DNA from: a virus
Lineage: Duplodnaviria > Caudoviricetes
Virus record (IMG/VR): IMGVR_UViG_3300037483_000925
Location: 20,047 to 84,046 of that record
Length of the DNA: 64,000 bases
Direction: 5' to 3' (one strand)
Shown here one piece after another: positions 31,972 through 47,140 of this stretch. Below the pieces are notes generated by a model. It saw only the letters and a program-made list of their open reading frames with translations, made no database searches and was not told the origin of the DNA. Every line of letters starts with the position of its first letter. Within the stretch, counting starts at the first letter, position 1. The position numbers were made by a program, and so were the translations under genes.

Positions 31972-33716
31972 AAAACTATCTGGAAAAAGTCAAGCCTCCT
32001 CCCTGGGACGACAATACCTTTATCTCCCTCCCCAACGAGATATTGGAAATCAATTTAGGGTTACCAGAAAAGATCACCATCGGTGATACCTGGGTATTGA
32101 TGTTCCTTGCAAGAAAGGCAGCCCAAGACCCAGAATGCAATTGCCGACTATCCATCAAGGAAATAAGCGCTGCCATGGGGCCGTCGACCGGCAATGATAA
32201 TAAACCCCAAGCTCGGGTAATCAGAAGATTAAGGAAATTTGAGCGATGTAAACTAATAGGGATAGAGCGGGTTCATGGGCAGGGGAGAAAAAATATCATC
32301 CAAGTATCCTCTGATCTTATAGAAATAGCTCTCCGGGCTGACAGAAGAGAAACCAAATCCATTCTAATAGGCCCGGAGATTTTTCTCTTAAATCTCCCCC
32401 TCTCAACCAAAACCGCCCTGGGAATCAAAAAGGCCTTGCCAAGAGTGAAGGCCACCACCCTAGCAAAGAAACTGAGGATCACATTCCAACAGGCCCAAAA
32501 CCATCTCAATTTCATCGGACAAACAGACTTCTCTATCCATTCTAAAAACCCCCCCAAAACTTTAATGAAACCCCCCCAAAACTTTAATGAAACCCCCCCA
32601 AAACTTGAAAAAGGTATAGATCAGGGTATAGACCTTGGGTTTAGCTTCAATATCCTAGGGGATATTGAAGGGGGCTTCGCCCCCCAAGCAATCGAAAACC
32701 TTCCCCATATGAAGGAGAGTAATTACATGCAAACTGTCCAGGCTGACCATAGGTACCCAACACCAAAAGTAAGACCAAAAGACCTTTATAATAAAGCCTA
32801 TCCGAAACCCCCCCCCACAGTGAGAATGACACGGGAGATCAAAGACGAATTGGAGCATGAAATTTTCCAGCACGATTTCATCACCCGGAACAAAAAACCG
32901 GATGCCCTGAGAAAATCAGCAAAAGTGGTTCAGGCCCTGAGCAGTCCCGGGGGGCTGTCGAATATCCTGGACAAAACAGAAATCGACCATATTGTACATA
33001 CCATGTCTGGGAACAAGATCAAGCCCCTGTCCCCAGACCAAATCATGGGAATCATCCAAAAGCAGTTTACAGACACAGAAAGGGTAAGGCTATATGAACT
33101 GCTTTCCCTGAATAATTCCCCGGCCTATGGGGGAAGAGGAAGGCAATCTCTATCAAAAATGGCCTATGACAACAGGGCTAATCCGGGGTGGAGCGATATT
33201 GTCTGGGTATGGCTCAGGCCGCCCCAGTTCCAGGGCAAACCCACCATCAAGTGTCCCCCTGATCTCGAGAGGCCCCTGGCCATCGTCCAGGAGTTCATGC
33301 CCCAGGCCAACCGGAACGTCGCCATCAACCTCCTGAAGGAGGCCAAGGTCCACTACGACAAGGACATCCTGCCCCTGGAGGAGAGACTCCGGGCCTCGAC
33401 CGGATTCATTGCCTTCCTGAGGAATTTTTTAAAGTGGGGCTATAATAAGGCAACGGAAAGATGGCCCCTGAACCCGGCCTGGCTCAAGACCAATAACGGG
33501 TTCTTCCTGGAGTGGGAGGCCGAATACAGGGAGGAGCTCCAGAAGGACGCCGACATCAGGGCGGCCGGTGCCAGGAAGCGGGCCGACGGGGAAAGGCAGG
33601 ACCTGATGAAGAGGATCATCGATGACCTGGACAACTACGACGAGGAGCACTGCCGGGAGAGGTACCCGGCCAAGATGGTGGACGAGGCGGTGAGATACAT
33701 GGAAAGCATGGTGTGA
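31869..33716 (+). CDS. Replication initiator-like protein with an N-terminal HTH and internal 22-bp repeats
   Basis: LSIKEISAAMG...VIRRLRKFE..KLI winged-HTH pattern; GGAGG RBS before 31869; lies upstream of the helicase. Confidence 0.55.
   Translation: MAQKNIDQTATTMEETSTENTKTTNYPTWWPRNLKNYLEKVKPPPWDDNTFISLPNEILEINLGLPEKITIGDTWVLMFLARKAAQDPECNCRLSIKEISAAMGPSTGNDNKPQARVIRRLRKFERCKLIGIERVHGQGRKNIIQVSSDLIEIALRADRRETKSILIGPEIFLLNLPLSTKTALGIKKALPRVKATTLAKKLRITFQQAQNHLNFIGQTDFSIHSKNPPKTLMKPPQNFNETPPKLEKGIDQGIDLGFSFNILGDIEGGFAPQAIENLPHMKESNYMQTVQADHRYPTPKVRPKDLYNKAYPKPPPTVRMTREIKDELEHEIFQHDFITRNKKPDALRKSAKVVQALSSPGGLSNILDKTEIDHIVHTMSGNKIKPLSPDQIMGIIQKQFTDTERVRLYELLSLNNSPAYGGRGRQSLSKMAYDNRANPGWSDIVWVWLRPPQFQGKPTIKCPPDLERPLAIVQEFMPQANRNVAINLLKEAKVHYDKDILPLEERLRASTGFIAFLRNFLKWGYNKATERWPLNPAWLKTNNGFFLEWEAEYREELQKDADIRAAGARKRADGERQDLMKRIIDDLDNYDEEHCRERYPAKMVDEAVRYMESMV
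32546..32606 (+). repeat. 2.8 tandem copies of the 22-bp unit AAACCCCCCCAAAACTTTAATG (iteron-like)
   Basis: Exact copies start at 32546, 32568 and 32590; the unit length is not a multiple of 3. Confidence 0.85.
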
Positions 33717-36767: not shown

Positions 36768-37145
36768 ATGCCACTGACCATCGTCAAGAGATTCGAATTC
36801 GGAGCCGCCCACCGGCTCCCCAACTACAAAGGCCCTTGTCAGAACCTCCACGGCCATAATTGGACCTTGGAGGTGGGGGTTACTGGTCCTGTGGATCGGA
36901 TTACCGGAATGATCGCCGACTTCAAGCAACTCAAGGATCTGGTCAACGACCATATCATTTCCCTTGTGGACCACCAATGCCTTAACGAGGCAGGTATCCC
37001 GGGGGTATCCCCCAATCCCACGGCCGAGAACATGGTCCAGTGGATGGTCCAGGTCCTGACCCATTACCTGAAGAAGACCGGATGCGAATTGGCCCTGATC
37101 CGACTCTGGGAAACCAGTACCAGCTATGCGGAGTGGAGACCATGA
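36768..37145 (+). CDS. queD: 6-carboxy-5,6,7,8-tetrahydropterin synthase
   Basis: F.AAHRL, C.NLHGHN, DH..LN, PTAEN and WET motifs. Confidence 0.95.
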   Translation: MPLTIVKRFEFGAAHRLPNYKGPCQNLHGHNWTLEVGVTGPVDRITGMIADFKQLKDLVNDHIISLVDHQCLNEAGIPGVSPNPTAENMVQWMVQVLTHYLKKTGCELALIRLWETSTSYAEWRP

Positions 37146-37789
37146 GAATCCATTCCCATTTTTTAAGCATCGACGGCGAGGTCAACTTCATGGGCCAAGG
37201 GATTCCCAGCATCTTCCTCCGGCTCCAGGGTTGTAATATAAGACCATTTTGCTCCTATTGCGACGTACCCGAGGCCCAGGACCCGAAGGGCGGTCAGGAG
37301 ATGTCTGTTCAGGAGGTCTTCGACATTATCCGCGGTTATGAATGCCCCAAGATTACTATAACCGGTGGTGAGCCCCTGCTCCAGGACAAAGAAATCCACA
37401 AGCTCCTGAACAGACTCTTTCCATACAAATATAAGATCAGTATCGAAACCAACGGCACCATATCCACGGCCCGGTTCCGGGAATGTAGGAAACCAGACCC
37501 GGACGTGGCCCTGGTGGTGGATTACAAATTTTCTGGTCATAATCCCGAAGCATTCAAGTATCTCCGGGAATGGGACTGGGTCAAGGTGGTGGTCGCGGGC
37601 AGGGATGATTTTGAAGCAGCCAGGGATGTCCTTAAATGGTCCCGGGCCTGCGGCTCCAAGGCTCGCTTTGCCCTGAGCCCGGTCCACGGGGTGCTCCCGG
37701 GCAAGGTCCTGGCCGAGTGGATCCTCGATGCCAAGATGTGGGATGTGACCTTGAACTGCCAGATTCACAAATTTTTATCCTTGCCGTAA
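37142..37789 (+). CDS. queE: 7-carboxy-7-deazaguanine synthase (radical SAM)
   Basis: F.SIDGE, RLQGCN..CSYCD (Cx5Cx2C variant), ITGGEP, IETNG, QIHK. Confidence 0.92.
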   Translation: MRIHSHFLSIDGEVNFMGQGIPSIFLRLQGCNIRPFCSYCDVPEAQDPKGGQEMSVQEVFDIIRGYECPKITITGGEPLLQDKEIHKLLNRLFPYKYKISIETNGTISTARFRECRKPDPDVALVVDYKFSGHNPEAFKYLREWDWVKVVVAGRDDFEAARDVLKWSRACGSKARFALSPVHGVLPGKVLAEWILDAKMWDVTLNCQIHKFLSLP

Positions 37790-37829: not shown

Positions 37830-38741
37830 ATGACAGATAAAAATGAATTTCCAATAACCAAACCAAAGGAGCAGAGCATGGACACCGGCAGTTTCACCAC
37901 CAACAAGGACGGCGGCGACGGCTACAAGGCCTGCCGCAAGGCCCTCCAGGAGGCATTCAAGGACATCAACGAGGTATTGCAGCCCAAGCCCAAGCTGAAC
38001 ATCATGATGGGCACGGACAAGATGGCCGAGGTCGTCGTTGCCCAGATCGCCGCCTGCATCGGCCAGGATGCCGTAGGCAACCCCACCTGGACCAATCCCG
38101 CGGCCGTGAACCTGAGCCCGGACACCATCAAGCTGTACGAATGGTGCGTGGGTCAGCGGACTCAGGAATCAATCCAAGACCCGAATTCAGTGGCTCAGAC
38201 CGTAGGTAAAGAGCAAATGGCCTTTACCAATGCAGAAGGAGAGGAGATAGTTGTCACTACGGCCCAGGACGCCGCCCAGGCCGCCGAGGACATCTACCTG
38301 GCCGACGGCGAGGAGTGCCCGGGCTGGGTCAAGAAAGCCGGACCCACCAACCCCAAATACGAGGCCATCTGCTTGGTCTGTTCCCGGCTGGCGGCTTGCG
38401 CCGATCGGGCTGGGGCGGCCAAGCCCAAGGCCGGGGCCAAGAAGACCGCCGGGGAGAAGGCAGTGGAGAAGGTCCAAAAAGACGCCGACAAGGCTGCGGC
38501 CAAGGAGGCCAAGAAAGCGGAGCGGGCAGCGGCCAAGGCCGCGGGTAAACTTGCGACTCGGGTCCGGACCGATGGCCCCTCTAATAAACAAAAGGTTTTC
38601 GTCTCCTGGAAAGCCAATCAGACCAAAACGGCCGACATTCTCGGTTCCGAAGTGGATGGTGCCATTAAGACCCAGACCATTAAATCCTGGATCGGTTCTT
38701 GGAAACATGGCAAAAATCTGCCAGCTGGGTCTACGGTCTAA
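37830..38741 (+). CDS. Hypothetical protein with a 4-Cys motif and a Lys/Ala-rich histone-like segment
   Basis: CPGW...CLVCSRLAAC; KAAAKEAKKAERAAAKAA. The true start may be 37878. Confidence 0.65.
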   Translation: MTDKNEFPITKPKEQSMDTGSFTTNKDGGDGYKACRKALQEAFKDINEVLQPKPKLNIMMGTDKMAEVVVAQIAACIGQDAVGNPTWTNPAAVNLSPDTIKLYEWCVGQRTQESIQDPNSVAQTVGKEQMAFTNAEGEEIVVTTAQDAAQAAEDIYLADGEECPGWVKKAGPTNPKYEAICLVCSRLAACADRAGAAKPKAGAKKTAGEKAVEKVQKDADKAAAKEAKKAERAAAKAAGKLATRVRTDGPSNKQKVFVSWKANQTKTADILGSEVDGAIKTQTIKSWIGSWKHGKNLPAGSTV

Positions 38742-38745
38742 TCTC

Positions 38746-39201
38746 ATGATCTCCACCAATTCCCCTGGGGGAGATTATCCCCCAGGGGCCATTGCTTTTA
38801 TCGGTTGTAGTAAATCCAAGAGGAATCACTCTTGTTCTGCTAAAGATATGTATTTGGGAGAGTTATTTAAAAAAGCTTTCAAATATTGTCTCGTCAATAA
38901 TTTTACTATTTATGTTCTCTCTGCCAAATATGGATTATTATCGCCAAATCAGATTATTGATCCTTATGACCAAACTTTAAATACTATGTCACAAGCCGAA
39001 AGGAGAATTTGGTACGATCTAGTAAGAACTCAACTCTACCATTTGCAAGTTCCCGACTTTCTTTTTTATTTCTTTTGTGGAGAGAAATACCATCTACCCT
39101 TTCAGGGAAATAAACCCCTACAAGGATTATCCATTGGTCGGCAACTTCAATGGTTTAATCAAAGAACCACTATAATAAAATCAAAAGGATTCGATTTATG
39201 A
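38746..39201 (+). CDS. DUF6884-like protein within the que cluster
   Basis: IGCSKSK...A.DMYLG..F...VLSAKYGL...I.PYD.L. Confidence 0.7.
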   Translation: MISTNSPGGDYPPGAIAFIGCSKSKRNHSCSAKDMYLGELFKKAFKYCLVNNFTIYVLSAKYGLLSPNQIIDPYDQTLNTMSQAERRIWYDLVRTQLYHLQVPDFLFYFFCGEKYHLPFQGNKPLQGLSIGRQLQWFNQRTTIIKSKGFDL

Positions 39202-39881
39202 GTTCAAAATGTATTGTCCTTCTCTCTGGTGGTATGGACTCGGCCACTCTTTTAGGACTTGCCGTTCAACAATACAAACAAGTCATGGCCCTGTCCGTGG
39301 ATTACGCCCAGCGCCACAAGGTGGAATTGCAATCGGCCAAGGCCGTGGCCGAGCATTTCGGTATCGAACACGAAATTCTGGACATTACCAATATCAATCA
39401 CCTGCTGGCCGGGTCATCCCTGACTTCGGATATGGCCGTACCCCATGGTCATTACGAAGACGAATCCATGAAGCAGACTGTGGTTCCAGCCCGCAATACC
39501 ATCTTACTGAGCCTTGCCGCTGGCTGGGCCATCAGTCGAGAATTCGATACCGTGGCCTACGCCGCCCATGCCGGAGATCACGCCATTTACCCAGATTGCA
39601 GAGCCGAGTTCGTTCTGGCCATGCAAAAGGTCTTTGATGTTTTCGATTACAATCCCCTTGATCTCTGGGTTCCGTTTTTGGGCCTGGACAAGGCGGGGAT
39701 CCTCAAAATAGGCATGCCTCTGGGAGTGCCTTACGAAAAGACATGGACCTGTTATGATCCACAGAGGGAATTTAAACGAGACCTTTATAAAGCTTGCGGC
39801 AAATGTGGGTCTTGCCAAGAACGTCTTGAGGCCTTTGTCCAGCTCGGTATCAAAGACCCGATTCAATATGTGGAGAAATAA
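39198..39881 (+). CDS. queC: 7-cyano-7-deazaguanine synthase
   Basis: LLSGGMDS, YAQRH..E, VPARN, YPDCR, TWTCY and CGKCGSC motifs. Confidence 0.97.
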   Translation: MSSKCIVLLSGGMDSATLLGLAVQQYKQVMALSVDYAQRHKVELQSAKAVAEHFGIEHEILDITNINHLLAGSSLTSDMAVPHGHYEDESMKQTVVPARNTILLSLAAGWAISREFDTVAYAAHAGDHAIYPDCRAEFVLAMQKVFDVFDYNPLDLWVPFLGLDKAGILKIGMPLGVPYEKTWTCYDPQREFKRDLYKACGKCGSCQERLEAFVQLGIKDPIQYVEK

Positions 39882-40801
39882 TGATTTATTACAGGATTCA
39901 AGAATTTAAAACCGATTGTCAAAAGCTGGCCGACAAAATCAAAGCCAGTGGAAAAGAATTCAAAGCCATTCGTGGCATTCCCCAAGGCGGTACAGCCGTG
40001 GCCCTGGAGCTTGGTTATCTTCTGAGGCTGCCGGTAATTGAAGAAAATGAACTTGTCATATGGAAGGCAGAATCGGTTCTGATTGTCGATGACTTGGTCG
40101 ACTCCGGAGCCACCCTGCTTCGATACAAAGGCCATGATTCGGCCACCATCCACGTCAAAACTCATACCCCAAAAGAAAACTATCCCACCTTTTGGTGTTC
40201 CAAGGTCTCTGACTGGATTACTTACTGGTGGGAGGCATCAGAAGAAAAATCTATCCGGGATAATGTCATTCGTATCCTGCAATTCATTGGCGAGGACCCG
40301 ACCCGGGAAGGTTTACTTAAAACTCCGGACCGAGTAGTCAAGTCCTGGGGGGAGATCTTCGGGGGCTATAAACAAGACCCTGCCTCGGTTTTTACTACTT
40401 TTGAACCTGATGGCTATACCCAGTTAGTCTTGCTCAAGGGAATTGAATTTTACAGTACATGTGAACATCACATGCTTTCGTTCTCCGGCAAGGCCCATAT
40501 CGGTTATATTGCCCAAGATCGGATCATAGGCATTTCCAAGCTAGCTCGTCTCCTGGATGTCTATGCCCGTCGCCTCCAAGTACAAGAACGCATTGGTCAG
40601 CAAGTGACCCAGGCCATTATGAAATACCTTCAACCGGCTGGGGCTGCCTGTATCATCGAGGCTGAACACCTCTGTATGCGTTGCCGGGGAGTAGAGAAAC
40701 AGAACTCGATCATGGTTACCAGTTCTTTGACTGGTCGTTTTTTGGAAGATTCTGATGCTGGAAGGGCGGCCAGGGCGGAGTTTATGGGGCTAATAAAATG
40801 A
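39881..40801 (+). CDS. folE: Phosphoribosyltransferase fused to GTP cyclohydrolase I
   Basis: N-terminal IPQGG and LIVDDLVDSGAT; C-terminal REGLLKTP.RV, CEHH, GISKLAR, QVQER, HLCM..RG. Confidence 0.92.
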   Translation: MIYYRIQEFKTDCQKLADKIKASGKEFKAIRGIPQGGTAVALELGYLLRLPVIEENELVIWKAESVLIVDDLVDSGATLLRYKGHDSATIHVKTHTPKENYPTFWCSKVSDWITYWWEASEEKSIRDNVIRILQFIGEDPTREGLLKTPDRVVKSWGEIFGGYKQDPASVFTTFEPDGYTQLVLLKGIEFYSTCEHHMLSFSGKAHIGYIAQDRIIGISKLARLLDVYARRLQVQERIGQQVTQAIMKYLQPAGAACIIEAEHLCMRCRGVEKQNSIMVTSSLTGRFLEDSDAGRAARAEFMGLIK

Positions 40802-41685
40802 ACAAAATCAATCTCTTTCTGGACTCCGGCGCCTTCTCCGCTTTCACCAAAAATATAACCATTGATATCCAGGAGTACATCGCCTTCATCAAAGAAAACC
40901 AAGATGTAATCGAAGTCTACGCCAATCTGGACGTTATTGGCGATCCTGCCGGGACCCTGGAAAACCAGAACATTATGGAAGCTGCCGCACTTAATCCCTT
41001 GCCTTGTTTCCATTATGGCGAGGATATTCAATATCTGAAATATTATCTTTCCAAATATGACTACTTGGCTCTGGGTGGCATGGTCCCCATCTCCACCGCC
41101 GATCTGATCCCCTGGCTCGATACTCTTTTCTCGGAACATATCTGTGGTGCGGATGGTTTACCCAAAGTCAAAATCCATGGCTTTGGTCTAACTTCTCTAA
41201 AGCTCATGCTCCGCTATCCCTGGTACAGTGTTGATTCCACTTCTTGGGTCATGACCGGGCGCATGGGCTCGGTCCTGGTCCCCAAACGAGGTGATTATCT
41301 GACCGATCCCTGGAAGGTGGCCGTGTCTGACCGCTCCCCATCCAAGGGCGAGGCCGGGAAACATTTCAAGACTTTCTCGCCCATGGAACAGGAAATCATT
41401 ATCCAATACCTGGATTCCAAGGGCTATAAGATAGGCTCATCCGAATTCCGGTTCGAGAACAAGAACTACAAGCCCATAGCCGGGGAACGTTGGCACGGCC
41501 CGGCCCGGGGCGATGGTTCCCGGGAAGTGGAATTGGTCACTGAACCGGGCTTGAGCAATGACTATATGCAAAGGGATGAGTTGAATATTATCTATTTTCT
41601 TGATCTTGAGGCTGCGCTGCCGGCTTGGCCTTGGGCCTTCAAACTCAAGACCAATCATGCGGTCAAGGGCGGGTTTGATCTGTGA
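40798..41685 (+). CDS. TGT-fold DpdA-like deazaguanine transglycosylase, N-terminally short
   Basis: LFLDSGAFS, ALGGMV, IHGFG and SVDSTSW, giving the two TGT-type Asp motifs; follows queC and folE. Confidence 0.75.
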   Translation: MNKINLFLDSGAFSAFTKNITIDIQEYIAFIKENQDVIEVYANLDVIGDPAGTLENQNIMEAAALNPLPCFHYGEDIQYLKYYLSKYDYLALGGMVPISTADLIPWLDTLFSEHICGADGLPKVKIHGFGLTSLKLMLRYPWYSVDSTSWVMTGRMGSVLVPKRGDYLTDPWKVAVSDRSPSKGEAGKHFKTFSPMEQEIIIQYLDSKGYKIGSSEFRFENKNYKPIAGERWHGPARGDGSREVELVTEPGLSNDYMQRDELNIIYFLDLEAALPAWPWAFKLKTNHAVKGGFDL

Positions 41686-41870
41686 GAATTTATCTGGCCA
41701 GTAATAATCCCGGACCGAGAGAGAGAGAGTTAGAAAAATATAATCGACTCTATGTTCCTAACCGACTCATTTCCTATTGGCAAATAGTCAACAAAGAAAT
41801 GGATTGTGAAAATCTTTTTGAATGGTGTAAAGGGGCAAATCTTGCAAGTATTTCTCGCCACTTGGACTGA
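41682..41870 (+). CDS. MKIYLA-family mini-protein 1
   Basis: MRIYLAS...NRLISYW; GTGA-coupled to the DpdA-like stop. Confidence 0.7.
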   Translation: MRIYLASNNPGPRERELEKYNRLYVPNRLISYWQIVNKEMDCENLFEWCKGANLASISRHLD

Positions 41871-41970
41871 ACTGAGCCAGAAAATTTCCCTGGATAAACT
41901 CAGGCAAAAAACCGCTTATTGTCCTATTTCTTCATAAAAAACGAATCACAGGAGTGGTTAAAAAACTATG
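41842..41970 (+). pseudogene. MKIYLA-family mini-protein 2, frameshifted at an A6 run
   Basis: TTG-QVFLATW...LRQK in one frame; NRLLSYFFIKNESQEWLKNY in the -1 frame after the run at 41906-41911. Confidence 0.55.
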
Positions 41971-42960
41971 CTAATTCAACGTCAAACACTGGTCAATGCC
42001 CTGGGCCTTCTCAAACCCGGCTTGAGTAACAAAGATATCATCGAGCAGGGCCTATGCTTTAACTTCAACAAGGACACCATCACCACCTTCAATGACCTCA
42101 TCTCCGTCTCCATTCCCCTGGAGACCGGGATTGAGGGCGCGGTCAGGGCTGAGGAACTGCACAAGCTCTTGGACCGGATCACCGCCGATGAAATTGAACT
42201 GACTCAAACCGAATCCGAGCTCCGGATCAAGGCCGGAAAAATCAAGGCCGGACTCTCACTCAAAGCTGAACTGCTCCCGCCTCTGGCTGTGGAAAATGAA
42301 TGGCAAGAATTGCCCAAACAATTCAAGGAGGCCATTGGCTTTTGCCAATTCTCCACCTCCAAGGACATGACCAGGCCCCACCTGACCTGCATCCATTTCG
42401 AAGGAGTCAAGGTTTCCAGCTCTGATCGCTGGCGCATCACCCAGTTCGCCATGACCGAGGCCATTCCGGTGAATTTCCTGCTCCCGGCCTCGGCCGCCAA
42501 CATTCTCCTGAAATACAACATTACTCACATGGCCTTGGACAATGCCTGGGTTCATTTTGCAGACGCAGAATCGGGCCTGGTATTCAGCACTCGGCTTATC
42601 CTGGCCGATTTGATGCAGCCGGATCAGTACTTCGATGTCCAGGGTCAGGTGGTTAGGCTGCCAGATTTGGACAAAACCCTGGAGCGGGCTAAAATAATGG
42701 TAGAGGGGGACTCTGATCTGGACCTGACCATCAAATTGATCCTGGAGCCGGGCAAGTTGATTTGCCGGGGCCAGAAAGAAATCGGTTGGGTGGAGGAGGT
42801 CGTGGACCTGGATTACAATGGTTCTCCCATTACCATGATGGTCAATCCCCTATTCTTGGCCGATATCCTGTCCAGGACCAAGGAAATGATCGTGTCGGAG
42901 AACATGTGCCTGTTCTGGGGTGAGAATTTCCGACACGTGATGATGTTGGTAAAGGAGTAG
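41968..42960 (+). CDS. DNA polymerase sliding clamp (beta-like)
   Basis: 330 aa; QFSTSKDMTRPHLTCIH, SSDRWRI, FLLPA and NPLFLADIL resemble DnaN motifs. Confidence 0.75.
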   Translation: MLIQRQTLVNALGLLKPGLSNKDIIEQGLCFNFNKDTITTFNDLISVSIPLETGIEGAVRAEELHKLLDRITADEIELTQTESELRIKAGKIKAGLSLKAELLPPLAVENEWQELPKQFKEAIGFCQFSTSKDMTRPHLTCIHFEGVKVSSSDRWRITQFAMTEAIPVNFLLPASAANILLKYNITHMALDNAWVHFADAESGLVFSTRLILADLMQPDQYFDVQGQVVRLPDLDKTLERAKIMVEGDSDLDLTIKLILEPGKLICRGQKEIGWVEEVVDLDYNGSPITMMVNPLFLADILSRTKEMIVSENMCLFWGENFRHVMMLVKE

Positions 42961-42962
42961 TC

Positions 42963-43124
42963 GTGAAGATTTATTTGGCCGGAATGCCTGGGGGGGGATT
43001 AAAAGGAAGAAAAAATATGACCAAAATTCCTTTTCTAAAAATCCTGATAAGCTATTTTCAATTTATAGATGGACTATGGGATCACAAACAAGATACTTTG
43101 TTTCTACTTGAAAAATCAAAATGA
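42963..43124 (+). CDS. MKIYLA-family mini-protein 3 (G8 tract)
   Basis: Manual translation MKIYLAGMPGGGLKGRKNMTKIPFLKILISYFQF...; GGAG RBS; ATGA-coupled to the next copy. Confidence 0.7.
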   Translation: MKIYLAGMPGGGLKGRKNMTKIPFLKILISYFQFIDGLWDHKQDTLFLLEKSK

Positions 43125-43324
43125 AAATATATCTTGCTGGTCACGGGGGGGGCTTGGAAAAGGAAGAAATCAAATTGATAGCAGTTGGAATCAAGAATCG
43201 GCTCCTTTCCTTCTTTTCTATCTCATGCCCGGAATTTTATTCCGAAAAAGGAATATTCAAATTATATGAAAATCTACTTGGCCCACAACGCCCCTTGGAG
43301 AGCAAGAGAAATGTTTTTAATTGA
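43121..43324 (+). CDS. MKIYLA-family mini-protein 4 (G8 tract)
   Basis: MKIYLAGHGGG...NRLLSFF. Confidence 0.7.
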   Translation: MKIYLAGHGGGLEKEEIKLIAVGIKNRLLSFFSISCPEFYSEKGIFKLYENLLGPQRPLESKRNVFN

Positions 43325-43448
43325 GCGGGGGGGGATTAAATCAAGATTAATTTCTTATTTTTATGCAATTCGAGAAGGAGCAGCATCATTTCAATATCTC
43401 AAGGAAATCAATGAAAATCTACTTGGCCGGGACTCCGGGAATAATTAG
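43266..43448 (+). CDS. MKIYLA-family mini-protein 5 (G8 tract)
   Basis: MKIYLAHNAPW...SRLISYFY. Confidence 0.7.
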   Translation: MKIYLAHNAPWRAREMFLIERGGIKSRLISYFYAIREGAASFQYLKEINENLLGRDSGNN

Positions 43449-43587
43449 CAGGGAGGGGGGGTGGATAAAGTTATATGTTCATCGTCTGCTCTCGTTCTGG
43501 GATATTCAACAAGATCAATTTCAGGTACCTCAAGCCTTTAATTTGATCAAGGAAAGAAATGAATTTCGTACACCTCCACCTGCATGA
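43411..43587 (+). CDS. MKIYLA-family mini-protein 6 (G7 tract)
   Basis: MKIYLAGTPG...HRLLSFW; first 18 nt identical to copy 5. Confidence 0.7.
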   Translation: MKIYLAGTPGIISREGGWIKLYVHRLLSFWDIQQDQFQVPQAFNLIKERNEFRTPPPA

Positions 43588-46500
43588 TCAGTTCTCCCTT
43601 CTGGATGGGCTCGGGACCGCTGACCAATATGCCGCCAGGGCCAAGGAATTGGATCAGGGCATCCTGACCCTCACGAATCACGGCAACATCGACGGCCTGA
43701 TCAAGTTCCAACGCGCCTGCACCAAGGCCGGGATTAAGCCCGTCCTTGGCTGCGAGCTATACATGGTCCCTGACCTCAGGAAGAAGGAAGCCAAGGAAAA
43801 GCGGCACCACATGACTGTCCTGATCCGGGACGAGGCCGGGTTCCGGAACCTGCTCCAGATGCTGTCCATCGCCAACCTGGAGGGGCACCATTACCGGCCC
43901 CGGGTGGACCCGGCCACGGTCCTGGGGCACCGGGAGGGGCTCGTTTTCATGTCCGCTTGCGTCAATTCCTTCGTCCTCATGGACGGGGGGCTGGACCTGC
44001 TCCTGGAGCTAAGAAGGACCAACCCCGTGGCCCTGGAAATCATGCCCCACGACATCCAGGCCCAGAAGGATATCAACTTGGTCAAGCTGGACATCGCCTG
44101 CCGATACCAGATCCCCCTCGTGGCCACCAACGATTGCCACTACCCCTTGGCCCACCAATGGCGGACCCAGGAGATGCTCCTGGCCATCCAGAGGAAGGCC
44201 AAGTGGTCCGACCCCGACCGCTGGAGGTTCGGGTTCGACGGCCTCCACCTGAGGTCAGCGGAGGAGATGGTCCAGGCATTTGCAAGGCAAAGGGTCCTGG
44301 ACCCTCCAACCGTGATCCAGGCCATGGAGAATACAGTGGCCATAGCATCCCTCTGTGATTTCAGGATAGAAAGACGGCCTGTGGAGCTGCCCAAGGCCCA
44401 CGGCTATGAGGACCGGGATGAGACGGAGCTGCTCTGGGAGATAATTGAGCATGGCTGGAGCCAAAGATTGGAGATTAACACCCCTCCGGGAGCAGACCTG
44501 AACATCTACAGGGTCAGGCTCGAAGAGGAAATGACCCAGATCATCCAGATGGGATTTCAGCGATATTTCCTTATCGTCTGGGAGCTGGTCAACTGGTGCC
44601 ATGAAAACGGCATAATGACGGGTCCAGGCCGTGGGTCGGTCGGGGGTAGTTTGGTGGCCTATCTCATGTACCTGACCGACGTGGACCCGATTAGGTACGG
44701 TCTTATCTTCGCCAGGTTCATATCTCCCGAAAGGAGCGACTTCCCGGACATCGACATGGACTTTCCCCAGGACCGGAGGGAGGAGGTCAGGAGGCACCTG
44801 GACGACTGCTATGGCAGGTACAATGTGGCCAGCATCACCACCTTCCTGACCATGAAGGGGTCCATGGCCCTCCGGGACGTGGCCAGGGTCTTCGACCTGC
44901 CGGGCGGGCAGGGCTCCGAAACGGACAAGGCCGCCAAGTCCATCATCGACAAGCCGGACGGGGACCCACGGGCTGGACATACCATCGAGGATTCCCTGAC
45001 CCAGTCCCCGGAGCTCCAGCAATTCAGGATCAGATACCCGGAGGCGGTGGCCCTGGCCATGGAACTGGAGGGCCAGGCTCGGGGCTATGGCAAACATGCG
45101 GCCGCCGCCTGCATCTCCGCAGAGGACCTCCGGGATGGGGCCAGGTGCAACCTGGCTTTCCGGGAAGGGACCCTGGTCGCCAACTGGGACAAGGGTGACG
45201 CCGAGTACATGGGCCTGATGAAGCTCGATGTCCTGGGGCTCTCCACCCTGTCCGTGCTTAATTACGCCAGGGAGCTGATCAAGGGGACCGAGATCGAATT
45301 CGACAAGATTCCCCTGGATGACCCGGACGTCTACCGGGAGTTCGCCGCCGGCCACTGCGTCGGGGCCTTCCAGCTCGGTACCAACCTGTTGATCAGGCTC
45401 TGCAAGGAGCTCGGGGTCAGGGAGTTCAACGACCTGGTGCTGATCAATGCCCTATCCCGGCCCGGACCCCTGGGGGCGGGCATGACCGATGAGTTCATTG
45501 CCCGGAGGAAGGGGCAGAAGTCGGTTACGTTCATCCATCCCCGGCTGGAGCCCTATACCCGGGAGACCCTGGGCATAGTCGTCTACCAGGAGCAGGTCAT
45601 GTGGTCCATGTTCGAGCTGGCCGGCCTGTCCTGGGGGGAGTGCGACAAGGTCCGGAAGGTGATGGGCAAGAGCAAGGGTGCAGTAGAGTTCGAGCGGTTC
45701 AAGGATCGGTTCGTCCGGGGCTGCTCCTCCCAGGGGACCCTGCCCCCCGGGGAAGCCGCCCACGTCTGGGACCAGCTGTCGTCCTTCGGAAGCTACGGAT
45801 TTAACAAGGCCCATGCCGTGGAATACTCCCTGATCGGCTACTGGACCATGTATCTCAAGCACCACCACCCAAAAGAGTTCATGGCTGCCCTGCTGACCCA
45901 TGGCGGGGAAAAGTATAAGGCTTCCTATGTGGCCGAGGCCCAGCGCCTGGGGATGATCATATCAATTCCTAGAATCGGGACCTCGCTTGCGAACAGGTGG
46001 GTGCCGGGGGCGGGCAATTCCCTCCTGGCCCCGTTTACTGAGATCAAGGGCGTGGGCCAGGCCCAGGCCGAGAAGATCGTGAATCCGGCGAGACCGAAGC
46101 CTAAGACCAAGAAAAAGAAAGTCAAGAAGGCCCAGAAGGGGTTCTTCGATACCGCCCCTGCCATAATAGAAGAGCCGATCACCCAGCCCCGGAATGGCAA
46201 TCATATCGATGAGGTCCTACGTAAGGTCGGGGCCGACGGCAGGGTTATGACCGAGGCCGAGCTCCAGGAGGCCCAGCAGTATTTCTCGTTCAATATCATG
46301 GACAAGGGCGGCAGATTCAAGAGATTGATTACCCTGGACCCGTCCCTGGCCCAAATCCCGGAACATGACCTACTTTCTTGCAACATCACCGCCAACCTGC
46401 TCAGGATCAGGAAATATGTCAGGAAGATCGAGGAGTTCCTGCCATGTGACTGGTGCGAGCTGAGGAAGCAATGCCGGGGGCCGGTCAATCCCTCCTTCGG

Positions 46501-47140
46501 TAGGTACAACGTCATGGTCGACGGCGAGGCCCCCGGCCCTGACGAGGATCAGCAGGGAATGGGGTTCGTGGGTAAGGCCGGGGTCGACGTCCTCTGGCCG
46601 GAACTGAGGAAGTACGGCCTGTCCCCGCTCATGTTTCACATCACCAACGCGGTCAAGTGCTTCCCGGGCAAGATCAGGACCCCGGGAAAAAAGCATATCG
46701 AGGCCTGCCGGCCCATCCTGGAGGACGAGATCCGGGTCCTGGAGCCGGTCGTCATCCTGGCCTTCGGCAACACCAACCTGAAGTTGTTCAAGGGCCAGGA
46801 CTCGGGAATCTCGGACCTGAGCGGAACCACCGAGTGGTCAGACCGATATCAATGTTGGATATGCTGGTGCACCCACCCGGCCTCGGTGCTCCATGGCGGG
46901 AGCAGGGCCGACTTCGAGCGGGGGATCGGGAACTTCGCCGGGGTCCTGGGGAGGCTGGAGGGCGGGAGGACAAGATGGAACTATGGCAATGCCAAGGGGC
47001 CATGCCCCTACGGGGGCCACTTCGGAGCGGGAAACAACAATTACCTGGAATGCGAAAGCTGCGGAATCTGGGACCAGTGTGCCATAATGGCATCGCAGAA
47101 TGACTGGGCAGGGCTAAGGAATTTGGGGAATCGGCTATAA
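43559..47140 (+). CDS. dnaE: DNA polymerase III alpha (DnaE) fused to a C-terminal family-4 uracil-DNA glycosylase
   Basis: PHP HLHLH..FSLLDG, GRGSVGGS, PDIDMDF, KLDVLGL, FNKAHA; then CDWC, GEAPG..ED, NAVKC and HPA. Confidence 0.95.
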   Translation: MNFVHLHLHDQFSLLDGLGTADQYAARAKELDQGILTLTNHGNIDGLIKFQRACTKAGIKPVLGCELYMVPDLRKKEAKEKRHHMTVLIRDEAGFRNLLQMLSIANLEGHHYRPRVDPATVLGHREGLVFMSACVNSFVLMDGGLDLLLELRRTNPVALEIMPHDIQAQKDINLVKLDIACRYQIPLVATNDCHYPLAHQWRTQEMLLAIQRKAKWSDPDRWRFGFDGLHLRSAEEMVQAFARQRVLDPPTVIQAMENTVAIASLCDFRIERRPVELPKAHGYEDRDETELLWEIIEHGWSQRLEINTPPGADLNIYRVRLEEEMTQIIQMGFQRYFLIVWELVNWCHENGIMTGPGRGSVGGSLVAYLMYLTDVDPIRYGLIFARFISPERSDFPDIDMDFPQDRREEVRRHLDDCYGRYNVASITTFLTMKGSMALRDVARVFDLPGGQGSETDKAAKSIIDKPDGDPRAGHTIEDSLTQSPELQQFRIRYPEAVALAMELEGQARGYGKHAAAACISAEDLRDGARCNLAFREGTLVANWDKGDAEYMGLMKLDVLGLSTLSVLNYARELIKGTEIEFDKIPLDDPDVYREFAAGHCVGAFQLGTNLLIRLCKELGVREFNDLVLINALSRPGPLGAGMTDEFIARRKGQKSVTFIHPRLEPYTRETLGIVVYQEQVMWSMFELAGLSWGECDKVRKVMGKSKGAVEFERFKDRFVRGCSSQGTLPPGEAAHVWDQLSSFGSYGFNKAHAVEYSLIGYWTMYLKHHHPKEFMAALLTHGGEKYKASYVAEAQRLGMIISIPRIGTSLANRWVPGAGNSLLAPFTEIKGVGQAQAEKIVNPARPKPKTKKKKVKKAQKGFFDTAPAIIEEPITQPRNGNHIDEVLRKVGADGRVMTEAELQEAQQYFSFNIMDKGGRFKRLITLDPSLAQIPEHDLLSCNITANLLRIRKYVRKIEEFLPCDWCELRKQCRGPVNPSFGRYNVMVDGEAPGPDEDQQGMGFVGKAGVDVLWPELRKYGLSPLMFHITNAVKCFPGKIRTPGKKHIEACRPILEDEIRVLEPVVILAFGNTNLKLFKGQDSGISDLSGTTEWSDRYQCWICWCTHPASVLHGGSRADFERGIGNFAGVLGRLEGGRTRWNYGNAKGPCPYGGHFGAGNNNYLECESCGIWDQCAIMASQNDWAGLRNLGNRL

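What the first reader, a model, noticed from the sequence alone, without database searches (positions are those of the whole stretch)
40798..43587. Split DpdA-like barrel with six interchangeable N-terminal modules
Seen in sequence: the TGT-fold protein starts almost directly at LFLDSGAFS. Six 45-67 aa paralogs follow (41682, 41842, 42963, 43121, 43266, 43411), all with M(K/R/Q)(I/V)(Y/F)LA...(R/I)L(L/I)S(Y/F)(F/W) and divergent spacers; the first is coupled to the DpdA-like stop codon. Established: in TGT barrels the DSGG strand is the third strand, after FMPVG-like and ILxNTY-like strands. Inference: each mini-protein is the missing beta1-alpha-beta2 module supplied in trans. Alternative modules could change the sequence or substrate specificity of 7-deazaguanine insertion, giving a combinatorial DNA-modification system.
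Basis: partly seen in the sequence, partly recalled or inferred. Interest (0 to 1): 0.85.

Follow-up and report, generated by a model that had tools for sequence, protein, structure and literature searches.

The report
Split phage DpdA with spare N-terminal modules
A sediment phage encodes its DNA-modifying enzyme (DpdA, which swaps guanine for a 7-deazaguanine) without the first quarter of its barrel fold. That quarter is supplied by a family of five to six different mini-genes, an arrangement shared by many related phages and not described in the papers I could search.

Summary
The window is part of an 84-kb uncultivated phage genome carrying queD, queE, queC, folE and a DpdA-family gene. 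The 295-aa DpdA begins five residues before the LFLDSG strand.

About a third of its closest relatives carry roughly 50 extra N-terminal residues (MKIYLAG...RLxSY). A confident AlphaFold model (pLDDT 94.7) folds these as beta1-alpha1-beta2-alpha2 of a TGT/DpdA barrel (Z 18.8 to solved DpdA 7ui4). The window protein therefore has six of the eight strands.

Five intact mini-ORFs and one frameshifted copy are homologous to that segment (hhalign 97.8%, E 1e-12).
- They evolve under purifying selection (dN/dS 0.05-0.27).
- They belong to distinct, old subtypes.
- The first overlaps the dpdA stop codon (GTGA).

Among IMG/VR relatives, 19 of 20 short-core loci with adequate flanks carry free modules. 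N-terminally fused and C-terminally fused (circularly permuted) forms also occur.

The idea that different modules change DNA specificity remains inference. G7-G9 runs are about 26-fold enriched in module genes, which hints at phase variation. Other first readers of this scan noted this same stretch and its G-tracts.

The parts
36768..37145 (+). queD (6-carboxytetrahydropterin synthase)
   Evidence: PF01242 E 7e-36
37040..37789 (+). queE (radical SAM); true start probably downstream of 37040
   Evidence: PF04055 and PF13353 on 37184-37786
38740..39201 (+). DUF6884 protein inside the que cluster
   Evidence: PF21818 E 2e-34
39198..39881 (+). queC (preQ0 synthase)
   Evidence: PF06508 E 6e-64
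39881..40801 (+). folE (GTP cyclohydrolase I) with an N-terminal PRTase-like piece; its stop overlaps the dpdA start
   Evidence: PF01227 E 9e-66, PF00156 E 4e-5
40798..41685 (+). DpdA-family core holding beta3-beta8, the large beta8/alpha8 insertion and alpha8; lacks beta1-alpha1-beta2-alpha2
   Evidence: phrog_887 E 1e-55, matching profile positions 56-256 only. 85% identical to residues 56-350 of long form P0003. D9, D45, H72, H127 and D146 are invariant. Short cores show pN 0.14-0.17 against pS 0.74-0.82.
41682..41870 (+). module 1 (62 aa, GTG), start overlapping the dpdA stop as GTGA; 'LASxxPG...CxxxF' subtype
   Evidence: HMM E 2e-16; dN/dS 0.27 against L001; 85% identical to the ortholog in L032
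41842..42029 (+). module 2 ('LATW' subtype), frameshifted at an A6 run (about 41907-41912) and overlapping the dnaN start
   Evidence: Two-frame reading. The L001 ortholog is intact with A7. HMM hit on the second half, E 5e-4. The same subtype lies right after dpdA in many loci.
41968..42960 (+). sliding-clamp (dnaN-like) gene
   Evidence: PF02768 E 5e-6; same position in all syntenic relatives
42963..43124 (+). module 3 (53 aa, GTG, 'AGxPGGG' subtype), G8 run at 42990
   Evidence: HMM E 5e-12; dN/dS 0.05; run
43121..43324 (+). module 4 (67 aa), ATGA overlap with module 3, G8 run at 43145
   Evidence: HMM E 8e-15; dN/dS 0.21
43266..43448 (+). module 5 (60 aa), G8 run at 43327
   Evidence: HMM E 2e-13; dN/dS 0.10
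43411..43587 (+). module 6 (58 aa, 'AGTPGI...WDIQxxQF' subtype), G7 run at 43455, overlapping the dnaE start
   Evidence: HMM E 1e-19; dN/dS 0.09; 60-65% identical to free modules in six other phages
43559..47140 (+). DnaE-type polymerase with a C-terminal UDG-superfamily domain
   Evidence: PF02811, PF07733, PF17657, PF03167

Best explanation
The phage makes preQ0 (FolE, QueD, QueE, QueC) and inserts it into its DNA with a DpdA-family transglycosylase that is a naturally split (beta/alpha)8 barrel. The 295-aa gene product holds strands beta3-beta8, the catalytic residues and the large beta8/alpha8 insertion. The missing first quarter (beta1-alpha1-beta2-alpha2, about 45-55 residues) is made as separate mini-proteins. 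Module 1 is translated by termination-reinitiation at the dpdA stop (GTGA), and the others come from a tightly overlapping array after dnaN. One mini-protein at a time docks onto the core and closes the barrel.

Shown here:
- the modules are homologous to the barrel's first quarter;
- the core has six of the eight strands;
- both parts are under purifying selection;
- they co-occur across many phages;
- fused and circularly permuted forms exist.

Inferred:
- physical assembly of module and core;
- that the five to six old, distinct module subtypes, which differ mainly in the two loops that face DNA and the active site in solved DpdA, give holoenzymes with different DNA-context preferences and so widen protection from restriction;
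- that homopolymer runs in the module genes may switch individual modules on and off.
For: - **Short and long forms.** Of 118 close homologs with the motif, 83 start 5-11 residues before LFLDSGAF. Another 32 carry 38-74 extra residues with MKIYLAG...RLxSY, including P0003 at 85% identity.
- **Characterised DpdA1 is fused.** The Seuratvirus and Rhizobium phage enzymes have the fused N-terminus of about 58 aa.
- **Structure.** The AlphaFold2 model of long form P0087 with a 98-sequence alignment has pLDDT 94.7 and pTM 0.90. It shows E2-6, H18-27, E30-34, H35-40, then E51-55 (LFLDS). Its best structural match is the solved DpdA 7ui4_A (Z 18.8, rmsd 3.1, 259 aligned, model 1-326 on chain 4-409), then archaeal TGT (18.3) and bacterial TGT (16.7, starting at chain residue 40).
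- **Homology.** Free modules against long forms give hhalign probability 97.8%, E 1.3e-12, on residues 1-43.
- **Selection.** Module dN/dS is 0.05-0.27, against 0.08-0.25 for dpdA, dnaN, folE and queC. Short cores have saturated synonymous sites with pN 0.14-0.17.
- **Real ORFs.** 139 of 163 free modules start with ATG exactly at HMM position 1, with a median length of 57 aa. The module directly after dpdA is almost always in the -1 frame, the ATGA/GTGA overlap.
- **Co-occurrence.** 19 of 20 short-core loci with adequate flanks carry 1-5 free modules on the same strand; the exception has two weak hits.
- **Circular permutants.** Natural core-then-module fusions include P0219 (module E 2e-11), P0210, P0246 and P0268, plus six more with the motifs visible by eye. 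Two were confirmed as continuous ORFs next to queC and folE.
- **Old subtypes.** Window paralogs are at most 46% identical to each other, yet each has closer relatives in other phages.
- **Loops face DNA.** In solved bacterial DpdA the beta1/alpha1 and beta2/alpha2 insertions lie on the DNA-binding surface and flank the active site (PMC10164549).
Against:
- 24 of 31 phages with an N-terminally fused, presumably self-sufficient DpdA also keep free modules. Simple complementation does not explain this. It may relate to the Met retained just before the core in 60 of 93 long forms, against about 26% expected.
- Module 2 is frameshifted in this genome.
- The first AlphaFold model (P0003, shallower alignment) left the N-terminus at pLDDT below 50.
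- Nothing here bears on whether the specificity differs between modules.
Confidence: 0.62

Rival explanations
1. The mini-proteins complete the core in trans but are functionally redundant isoforms. Several copies would be kept for dosage, timing or robustness, for example against host factors or slippage-prone genes, and they would not alter DNA or substrate specificity.
For: The strands that build the barrel are the conserved parts (A2 and A3). Copy number varies freely between close relatives, from 1 to 7. One copy is frameshifted here without loss of the others.
Against: The subtypes are old and separately conserved across phages, at 60-85% identity within a subtype against 46% or less between window paralogs. 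That pattern argues for distinct, individually selected roles. Redundant copies would be expected to homogenise or decay.
Confidence: 0.17
2. The mini-proteins are not subunits of the phage enzyme. They would act as regulators or decoys derived from the DpdA N-terminus, for example by blocking or timing the phage core, or by poisoning a host TGT- or Dpd-type barrel. Alternatively they assemble among themselves.
For: Free modules persist in 24 of 31 phages whose DpdA is already complete. They sit in the replication operon beside dnaN and dnaE rather than only next to dpdA.
Against: Short cores would then lack two barrel strands, yet they are strongly conserved. Short cores nearly always co-occur with modules. 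The start/stop overlap with dpdA and the natural core-module fusions point to one functional unit.
Confidence: 0.12
3. The 295-aa protein works alone, for example by closing its barrel through dimerisation or strand swapping. The mini-ORFs would then be irrelevant to it.
For: Short forms are the majority of close homologs, so gene loss of the N-terminus is clearly tolerated.
Against: Characterised relatives and solved structures all use beta1 and beta2. The mini-ORFs are homologs of exactly the missing piece, are under selection, and accompany short cores.
Confidence: 0.06
4. The mini-ORFs are decaying leftovers of repeated 5'-end duplications, or DNA-level repeats (iterons or promoters) near the replication genes, with no protein function.
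For: They lie between replication genes. One copy is frameshifted, and L002 carries a decayed copy upstream of dpdA with an ATA start and TAATAA stops.
Against: dN/dS is 0.05-0.27, with synonymous variation in the conserved motifs. 148 of 163 have canonical starts at the homologous position. 210 separately called small proteins of this family exist in public data at E below 1e-3.
Confidence: 0.03

Closest known systems
Phage DpdA1 (Enterobacteria phage 9g / CAjan / Seuratvirus type 7-deazaguanine DNA transglycosylase)
   Same: 46% identity over core residues 5-210. Same LFLDSGAFS, HGFG and VDS(T/S)SW motifs. Same neighbourhood: folE, queD, dpdA, small genes, clamp, polymerase. The N-terminus has the same pattern (MNVFMAA...ILESYHY).
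   Different: DpdA1 is a single chain with the N-terminal quarter fused, and the two cultured-phage records examined have no free modules. Here the quarter is detached and present in five to six paralogous versions.
Bacterial DpdA of the Dpd restriction-modification system (PDB 7ui4; PMC10164549)
   Same: Best structural match of the long-form homolog (Z 18.8). Same barrel, with the acid/base Asp on beta3.
   Different: About 15% sequence identity and no sequence-level hit. Bacterial DpdA is one chain of 413 residues, needs DpdB and ATP, and has a Zn site that was not examined here.
tRNA-guanine transglycosylases (bacterial TGT, archaeal TGT, QTRT1/2)
   Same: Same fold (Z 16.7-18.3).
   Different: They act on tRNA, carry an N-terminal beta-sheet lid and are single chains. 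The Pfam TGT model PF01702 gave no match to the window protein at E up to 1.
Laboratory fragment complementation and quarter- or half-barrel evolution models of TIM barrels (HisF/HisA halves, designed four-fold barrels; from my own knowledge, and titles listed)
   Same: A (beta-alpha)2 unit acting as an exchangeable building block of a (beta/alpha)8 barrel.
   Different: Those are engineered or inferred ancestral states. Here the split is natural, is maintained by selection, and comes with several alternative quarters in one genome.
Phase-variable specificity subunits of restriction-modification systems (hsdS shufflons, phasevarions; from my own knowledge)
   Same: Several alternative specificity-bearing parts for one catalytic core, with homopolymer runs inside the variable genes.
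   Different: In those systems the parts are DNA-recognition domains of methyltransferases in bacteria. Here the part is a structural quarter of the catalytic barrel of a base-exchange enzyme in a phage, and switching was not shown.

Membership tests
TGT/DpdA superfamily | (beta/alpha)8 barrel of the TGT type | tested here: met
   The model of long-form homolog P0087 (pLDDT 94.7) matches DpdA 7ui4 at Z 18.8, archaeal TGT at 18.3, and QTRT2 and bacterial TGT at 16.7. The next unrelated barrels score 11.7 or less. The window protein is 62% identical to P0087 over 96% of its length.
TGT/DpdA superfamily | Invariant Asp after beta3 (DSG motif) and a nucleophile Asp after beta8 | tested here: met
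   D9 (LFLDSG) and D146 (SVDSTSW) are invariant in 82 short forms, as are D45, H72 and H127. Their equivalence to Asp95, Asp130, His181 and Asp256 of bacterial DpdA is inferred from order and spacing, not from a residue-level superposition.
TGT/DpdA superfamily | All eight strands in one polypeptide | tested here: not met
   The window ORF starts 5 residues before beta3 and nothing upstream can be added. phrog_887 matches from profile position 56 only.
TGT/DpdA superfamily | Match to the curated sequence model (Pfam PF01702 TGT) | tested here: not met
   No Pfam family above threshold, although PHROG 887 'queuine tRNA-ribosyltransferase' scores E 1e-55. Distant DpdA subfamilies are known to escape simple searches (PMC6884629, PMC10516641).
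TGT/DpdA superfamily | Structural Zn site (CXCX2CX22H in bacterial DpdA and TGT) | not tested
   Not examined residue by residue.
Phage DpdA (7-deazaguanine DNA insertase) | Encoded next to preQ0 synthesis genes | tested here: met
   queD, queE, queC and folE lie directly upstream; the order is the same in relatives.
Phage DpdA (7-deazaguanine DNA insertase) | Inserts a 7-deazaguanine into DNA | not testable with these tools
   Needs LC-MS of phage or plasmid DNA.
Obligate two-part (split) enzyme | Both parts bind each other and are needed for activity | not testable with these tools
Only comparative evidence is available.
Phase-variable gene (slipped-strand) | Homopolymer run inside the coding sequence | tested here: met
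   G8, G8, G8 and G7 runs in modules 3-6. These three are the only G runs of 8 or more in the 64-kb window (a C9 lies at 32808). The runs are kept in the L001 orthologs despite dS of about 0.7-3. G runs of 7 or more number 15 in 22.7 kb of module DNA against 21 in 839 kb of flanks.
Phase-variable gene (slipped-strand) | Run length varies within a population | tested here: inconclusive
   Only assembled contigs of the probable source sample were available. They show no variant but cannot show rare ones. Between genomes, A6 against A7 shifts module 2, and a G8 run splits a module upstream of dpdA in L001.

The most novel reading that the evidence does not exclude
A phage reprogrammes the DNA-sequence (or base) specificity of a DNA base-exchange enzyme by swapping alternative quarter-barrel subunits onto one catalytic three-quarter barrel. 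Homopolymer slippage (G7-G9, A6/A7) would switch individual subunit genes on and off. That would make it a combinatorial, phase-variable DNA hypermodification system, and a living example of TIM-barrel assembly from exchangeable (beta-alpha)2 units.
Probability: 0.25. Interest if true: 0.92.

Novelty: new variant of a known kind. Interest (0 to 1): 0.8.

Why it matters
DpdA enzymes decide which guanines in a phage genome are replaced by 7-deazaguanines, and so which restriction and CRISPR systems the phage escapes. Known DpdAs are single chains with fixed target motifs (PMC10484667 and PMC7544227, abstracts).

A natural DpdA whose first quarter is a separate, exchangeable mini-protein, present in several old subtypes per genome and in dozens of environmental phage contigs sampled here, would matter in three ways:
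1. It would be a new way for phages to diversify DNA modification.
2. It is a rare natural case of a TIM barrel built from separately encoded pieces, with split, N-fused and circularly permuted states all sampled by evolution. That bears directly on the long-standing idea that (beta/alpha)8 barrels grew from (beta-alpha)2 or (beta-alpha)4 units.
3. It could serve as a scaffold for engineering DNA-modifying enzymes with selectable specificity.

It also matters for annotation. The roughly 297-aa 'hypothetical proteins' and the 50-60-aa 'hypothetical proteins' beside them are two halves of one enzyme.

Tried and rejected
- **Pfam** gave no hit for the core or for any module. PHROGs gave no hit for the modules.
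- **PDB sequence searches** with the core, and with the long-form profile, found nothing.
- **The first AlphaFold model** (P0003, 46-sequence alignment) left residues 1-56 at pLDDT below 50, and Foldseek gave only weak barrel hits. It was replaced by the P0087 model with 98 long forms.
- **Searching with the circular permutant P0219** for close permuted relatives found none; all hits covered the core only. That particular fusion is therefore rare, although nine other permuted representatives exist.
- **Seuratvirus and Rhizobium phage small genes** next to dpdA are not module homologs.
- **Sequencing runs:** only one run was found, the likely source, and it is kept as contigs. No length variants of the runs are visible, which says nothing about rare variants.
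- **Readthrough or frameshift fusion** of dpdA to module 1 was considered. The -1 frame overlap is the ordinary ATGA/GTGA coupling arrangement seen throughout, so no recoding is needed.
- **Literature searches** for a split, truncated or permuted DpdA found nothing in the held library.

Full report
**Setting**

The window is bases 20047-84046 of an 84,046-bp IMG/VR virus record, about 75% complete by CheckV. Its only public holder is a sediment metagenome run.

Around the finding the + strand carries these genes, in order:
- queD (36768-37145);
- queE (to 37789);
- an unassigned Lys/Ala-rich protein;
- a DUF6884 protein;
- queC (39198-39881);
- a PRTase-like/FolE fusion (39881-40801);
- the DpdA-like gene (40798-41685);
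- two mini-ORFs;
- a clamp gene (41968-42960);
- four mini-ORFs;
- a DnaE-type polymerase with a C-terminal UDG domain (43559-47140).

This is the familiar preQ0 pathway plus DNA transglycosylase arrangement of phages with 7-deazaguanine-modified DNA (PMC6884629, PMC10516641). It has the same gene order as Seuratvirus and Rhizobium phages.

**Observation**

The 295-aa protein starts MNKINLFLDSGAFS. Its reading frame holds only 19 codons before LFLDSG, and folE ends in an ATGA overlap with its start.

Five mini-ORFs (41682, 42963, 43121, 43266, 43411; 53-67 aa) carry M(K/R)IYLA and (R/I)L(L/I)S(Y/F)(F/W) in one frame. The second motif is written with different codons in each copy (CGA/CGC/CGG/AGA/CGT for Arg; TCC/AGC/TCT/TCG for Ser). 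The conservation is therefore at the protein level.

The sixth copy (41842, TTG) is broken. After an A6 run the NRLLSYFF motif continues in the next frame. Its ortholog in the close relative L001 has A7 and is intact.

The first mini-ORF starts with the GTG of GTGA, where TGA is the dpdA stop.

**The missing piece is real, and the mini-ORFs are its homologs**

Of 118 motif-bearing proteins among the best 120 homologs, 83 begin 5-11 residues before LFLDSGAF. Another 32 carry 38-74 extra N-terminal residues reading MKIYLAG...RLxSY(F/Y/W), including P0003 (85% identical) and P0087. The characterised DpdA1 type also has this segment fused (MNVFMAA...ILESYHY...VFLDSGAFS).

An HMM made only from those fused N-termini finds the six window copies (E 5e-12 to 9e-3) and nothing else in the window. 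A profile-profile comparison of 118 free modules with 98 long forms gives 97.8% probability, E 1.3e-12, on residues 1-43.

**Structure**

A first model (P0003, 46 sequences) left the N-terminus unplaced at pLDDT below 50.

A second model (P0087, 98 long forms) is confident throughout: pLDDT 94.7 and pTM 0.90, with N-terminal blocks at 84-94. Its elements are:
- beta1, residues 2-6;
- helix, 18-27;
- beta2, 30-34;
- short helix, 35-40;
- beta3, 51-55 (LFLDS);
- five further barrel strands (86-88, 116-118, 136-140, 172-175, 191-194);
- a large insertion and a closing helix, 306-323.

It superposes from residue 1 on solved DpdA 7ui4 (Z 18.8, rmsd 3.1, 259 residues), archaeal TGT (18.3), and QTRT2 and bacterial TGT (16.7). 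Unrelated barrels score 11.7 or less.

The window protein therefore encodes six of the eight strands.

**The mini-ORFs are genes**

| Comparison, window vs L001 | dN/dS |
|---|---|
| Five orthologous module pairs | 0.05-0.27 |
| dpdA core | 0.10 |
| dnaN | 0.12 |
| folE | 0.08 |
| queC | 0.25 |

Short cores compared with each other have saturated synonymous sites (pS 0.74-0.82) and pN of only 0.14-0.17. The truncated enzyme gene is therefore maintained.

In the large protein collection, 210 separately called proteins of 48-94 aa match the module profile at E below 1e-3. All are 'hypothetical' and none has a Pfam family.

**Comparative genomics**

Eighty IMG/VR loci holding relatives of the core were scanned, with these results:
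- Free modules lie on the same strand, directly upstream of dpdA, directly after it, or after the clamp gene, at one to six per locus.
- 139 of 163 start with ATG exactly at profile position 1, and the median length is 57 aa.
- The module directly after dpdA is almost always in the -1 frame, the start/stop overlap typical of coupled translation of subunits.
- Of 20 non-redundant short-core loci with adequate flanks, 19 have at least one strong module hit. The remaining locus has two weak hits.
- L002 shows an intermediate state: a decayed module (ATA start, TAATAA stops) sits in frame just upstream of a short core, with two intact modules after dnaN.
- At least four database proteins carry a significant module after the core, and six more show the motifs by eye. 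These are natural circular permutants. Two were checked as continuous ORFs beside queC and folE in other phage types.

Split, N-fused and C-fused states of the same two parts are what one expects for pieces of one folding unit whose ends meet, as they do in a (beta/alpha)8 barrel.

**Why several modules?**

The window paralogs are at most 46% identical to each other, or undetectable by BLAST. Each nevertheless has closer relatives in other phages:
- module 6 is 60-65% identical to free modules in six loci, and similar to the fused N-termini of P0057, P0100 and P0102;
- module 1 is 85% identical to its counterpart in L032;
- module 2 belongs to the 'LATW' subtype found after dpdA in many loci.

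The subtypes therefore predate these phages and are kept separately. The conserved positions are the two strands. The variable parts are the beta1/alpha1 stretch and the segment after beta2. In solved bacterial DpdA the insertions at these two places lie on the DNA-binding surface and beside the active site, and the authors proposed that the second contributes to sequence recognition (PMC10164549).

One observation does not fit a simple split: 24 of 31 phages with a fused, complete DpdA also keep free modules. A possible link is that 60 of 93 long forms retain a Met 2-12 residues before beta3, against about 26% expected from composition. This could be a relic start or an internal start that also yields a free core. 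The sequences are related, so this count is only suggestive.

**Homopolymer runs**

The three G runs of 8 in the window, and the G7 run of module 6, all lie in modules 3-6; outside the array the longest G runs are two G7 (12459, 26598), and a C9 lies at 32808. The L001 orthologs keep them (G9, G8, G8, G7) although synonymous sites are near saturation.

Across all loci, G runs of 7 or more occur 15 times in 22.7 kb of module DNA and 21 times in 839 kb of flanks, about 26-fold denser. GGG accounts for 27% of Gly codons in the window.

Two frameshifted modules sit exactly at such runs: A6 against A7 here, and a G8 in L001. This fits slipped-strand switching. Only contigs of the source sample were available, so variation within a population could not be examined. 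Other first readers of this scan flagged the same runs.

**Comparison with what is known**

The enzyme belongs to the phage DpdA branch of the TGT/DpdA superfamily and is closest to the DpdA1 type. It fails one ordinary property of every described member, a complete barrel in one chain.

The papers that define bacterial DpdA and subfamilies DpdA1 to DpdA4 do not mention split, truncated or permuted forms or accessory mini-proteins. Full-text searches of the held library found none. I therefore rate it a new variant of a known kind.

**Verdict**

| Claim | Status | Estimate |
|---|---|---|
| The observation | Correct, with one copy frameshifted | - |
| Structural and homology parts of the interpretation | Supported by direct tests | - |
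| Supply of the modules in trans | Strongly supported by comparison; not tested physically | about 0.8 that the modules are subunits of the enzyme in some form |
| Full best explanation as stated | - | 0.62 |
| Module-dependent specificity and phase variation | Open | about 0.25 |

Noticed in passing
window 32545-32610 and 32808: Three 22-bp direct repeats (AAACCCCCCCAAAACTTTAATG-like), each with a C7 run, plus a C9 run 200 bp downstream, ahead of a gene start. They look like iterons or operator sites.
   Followed up: no
window 43559-47140: The DnaE-type polymerase has a C-terminal uracil-DNA-glycosylase superfamily domain (PF03167, residues 984-1114). The L001 ortholog also contains an intein.
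   Followed up: partly
window 39881-40801: GTP cyclohydrolase I is fused to an N-terminal piece of about 120 aa with a weak phosphoribosyltransferase signature (PF00156, E 4e-5). The fusion is conserved in relatives.
   Followed up: no
window 37830-39201: Two unassigned genes sit inside the que cluster: a 303-aa Lys/Ala-rich protein with no family and a DUF6884 protein (PF21818, E 2e-34). They may act on the 7-deazaguanine base.
   Followed up: no
P0131, P0137, P0166, P0227: DpdA-core homologs of 630-720 aa match in two separated stretches. They are probably intein-bearing dpdA genes.
   Followed up: no
L001 7381-7500: A further module upstream of the fused dpdA is split between two frames exactly at a G8 run (MKIYLGG... 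then ...KYRLFSYELI).
   Followed up: partly
L004/L005 7666-8004: A T4 endonuclease V-like gene (PF03013, Pyr_excise) lies between folE and the short dpdA in one relative, where others have an N-terminal module.
   Followed up: no
long-form DpdA homologs (alignment A5): 60 of 93 fused forms keep a Met 2-12 residues before the LFLDSG strand (about 26% expected). This is either a relic of gene fusion or an internal start.
   Followed up: partly
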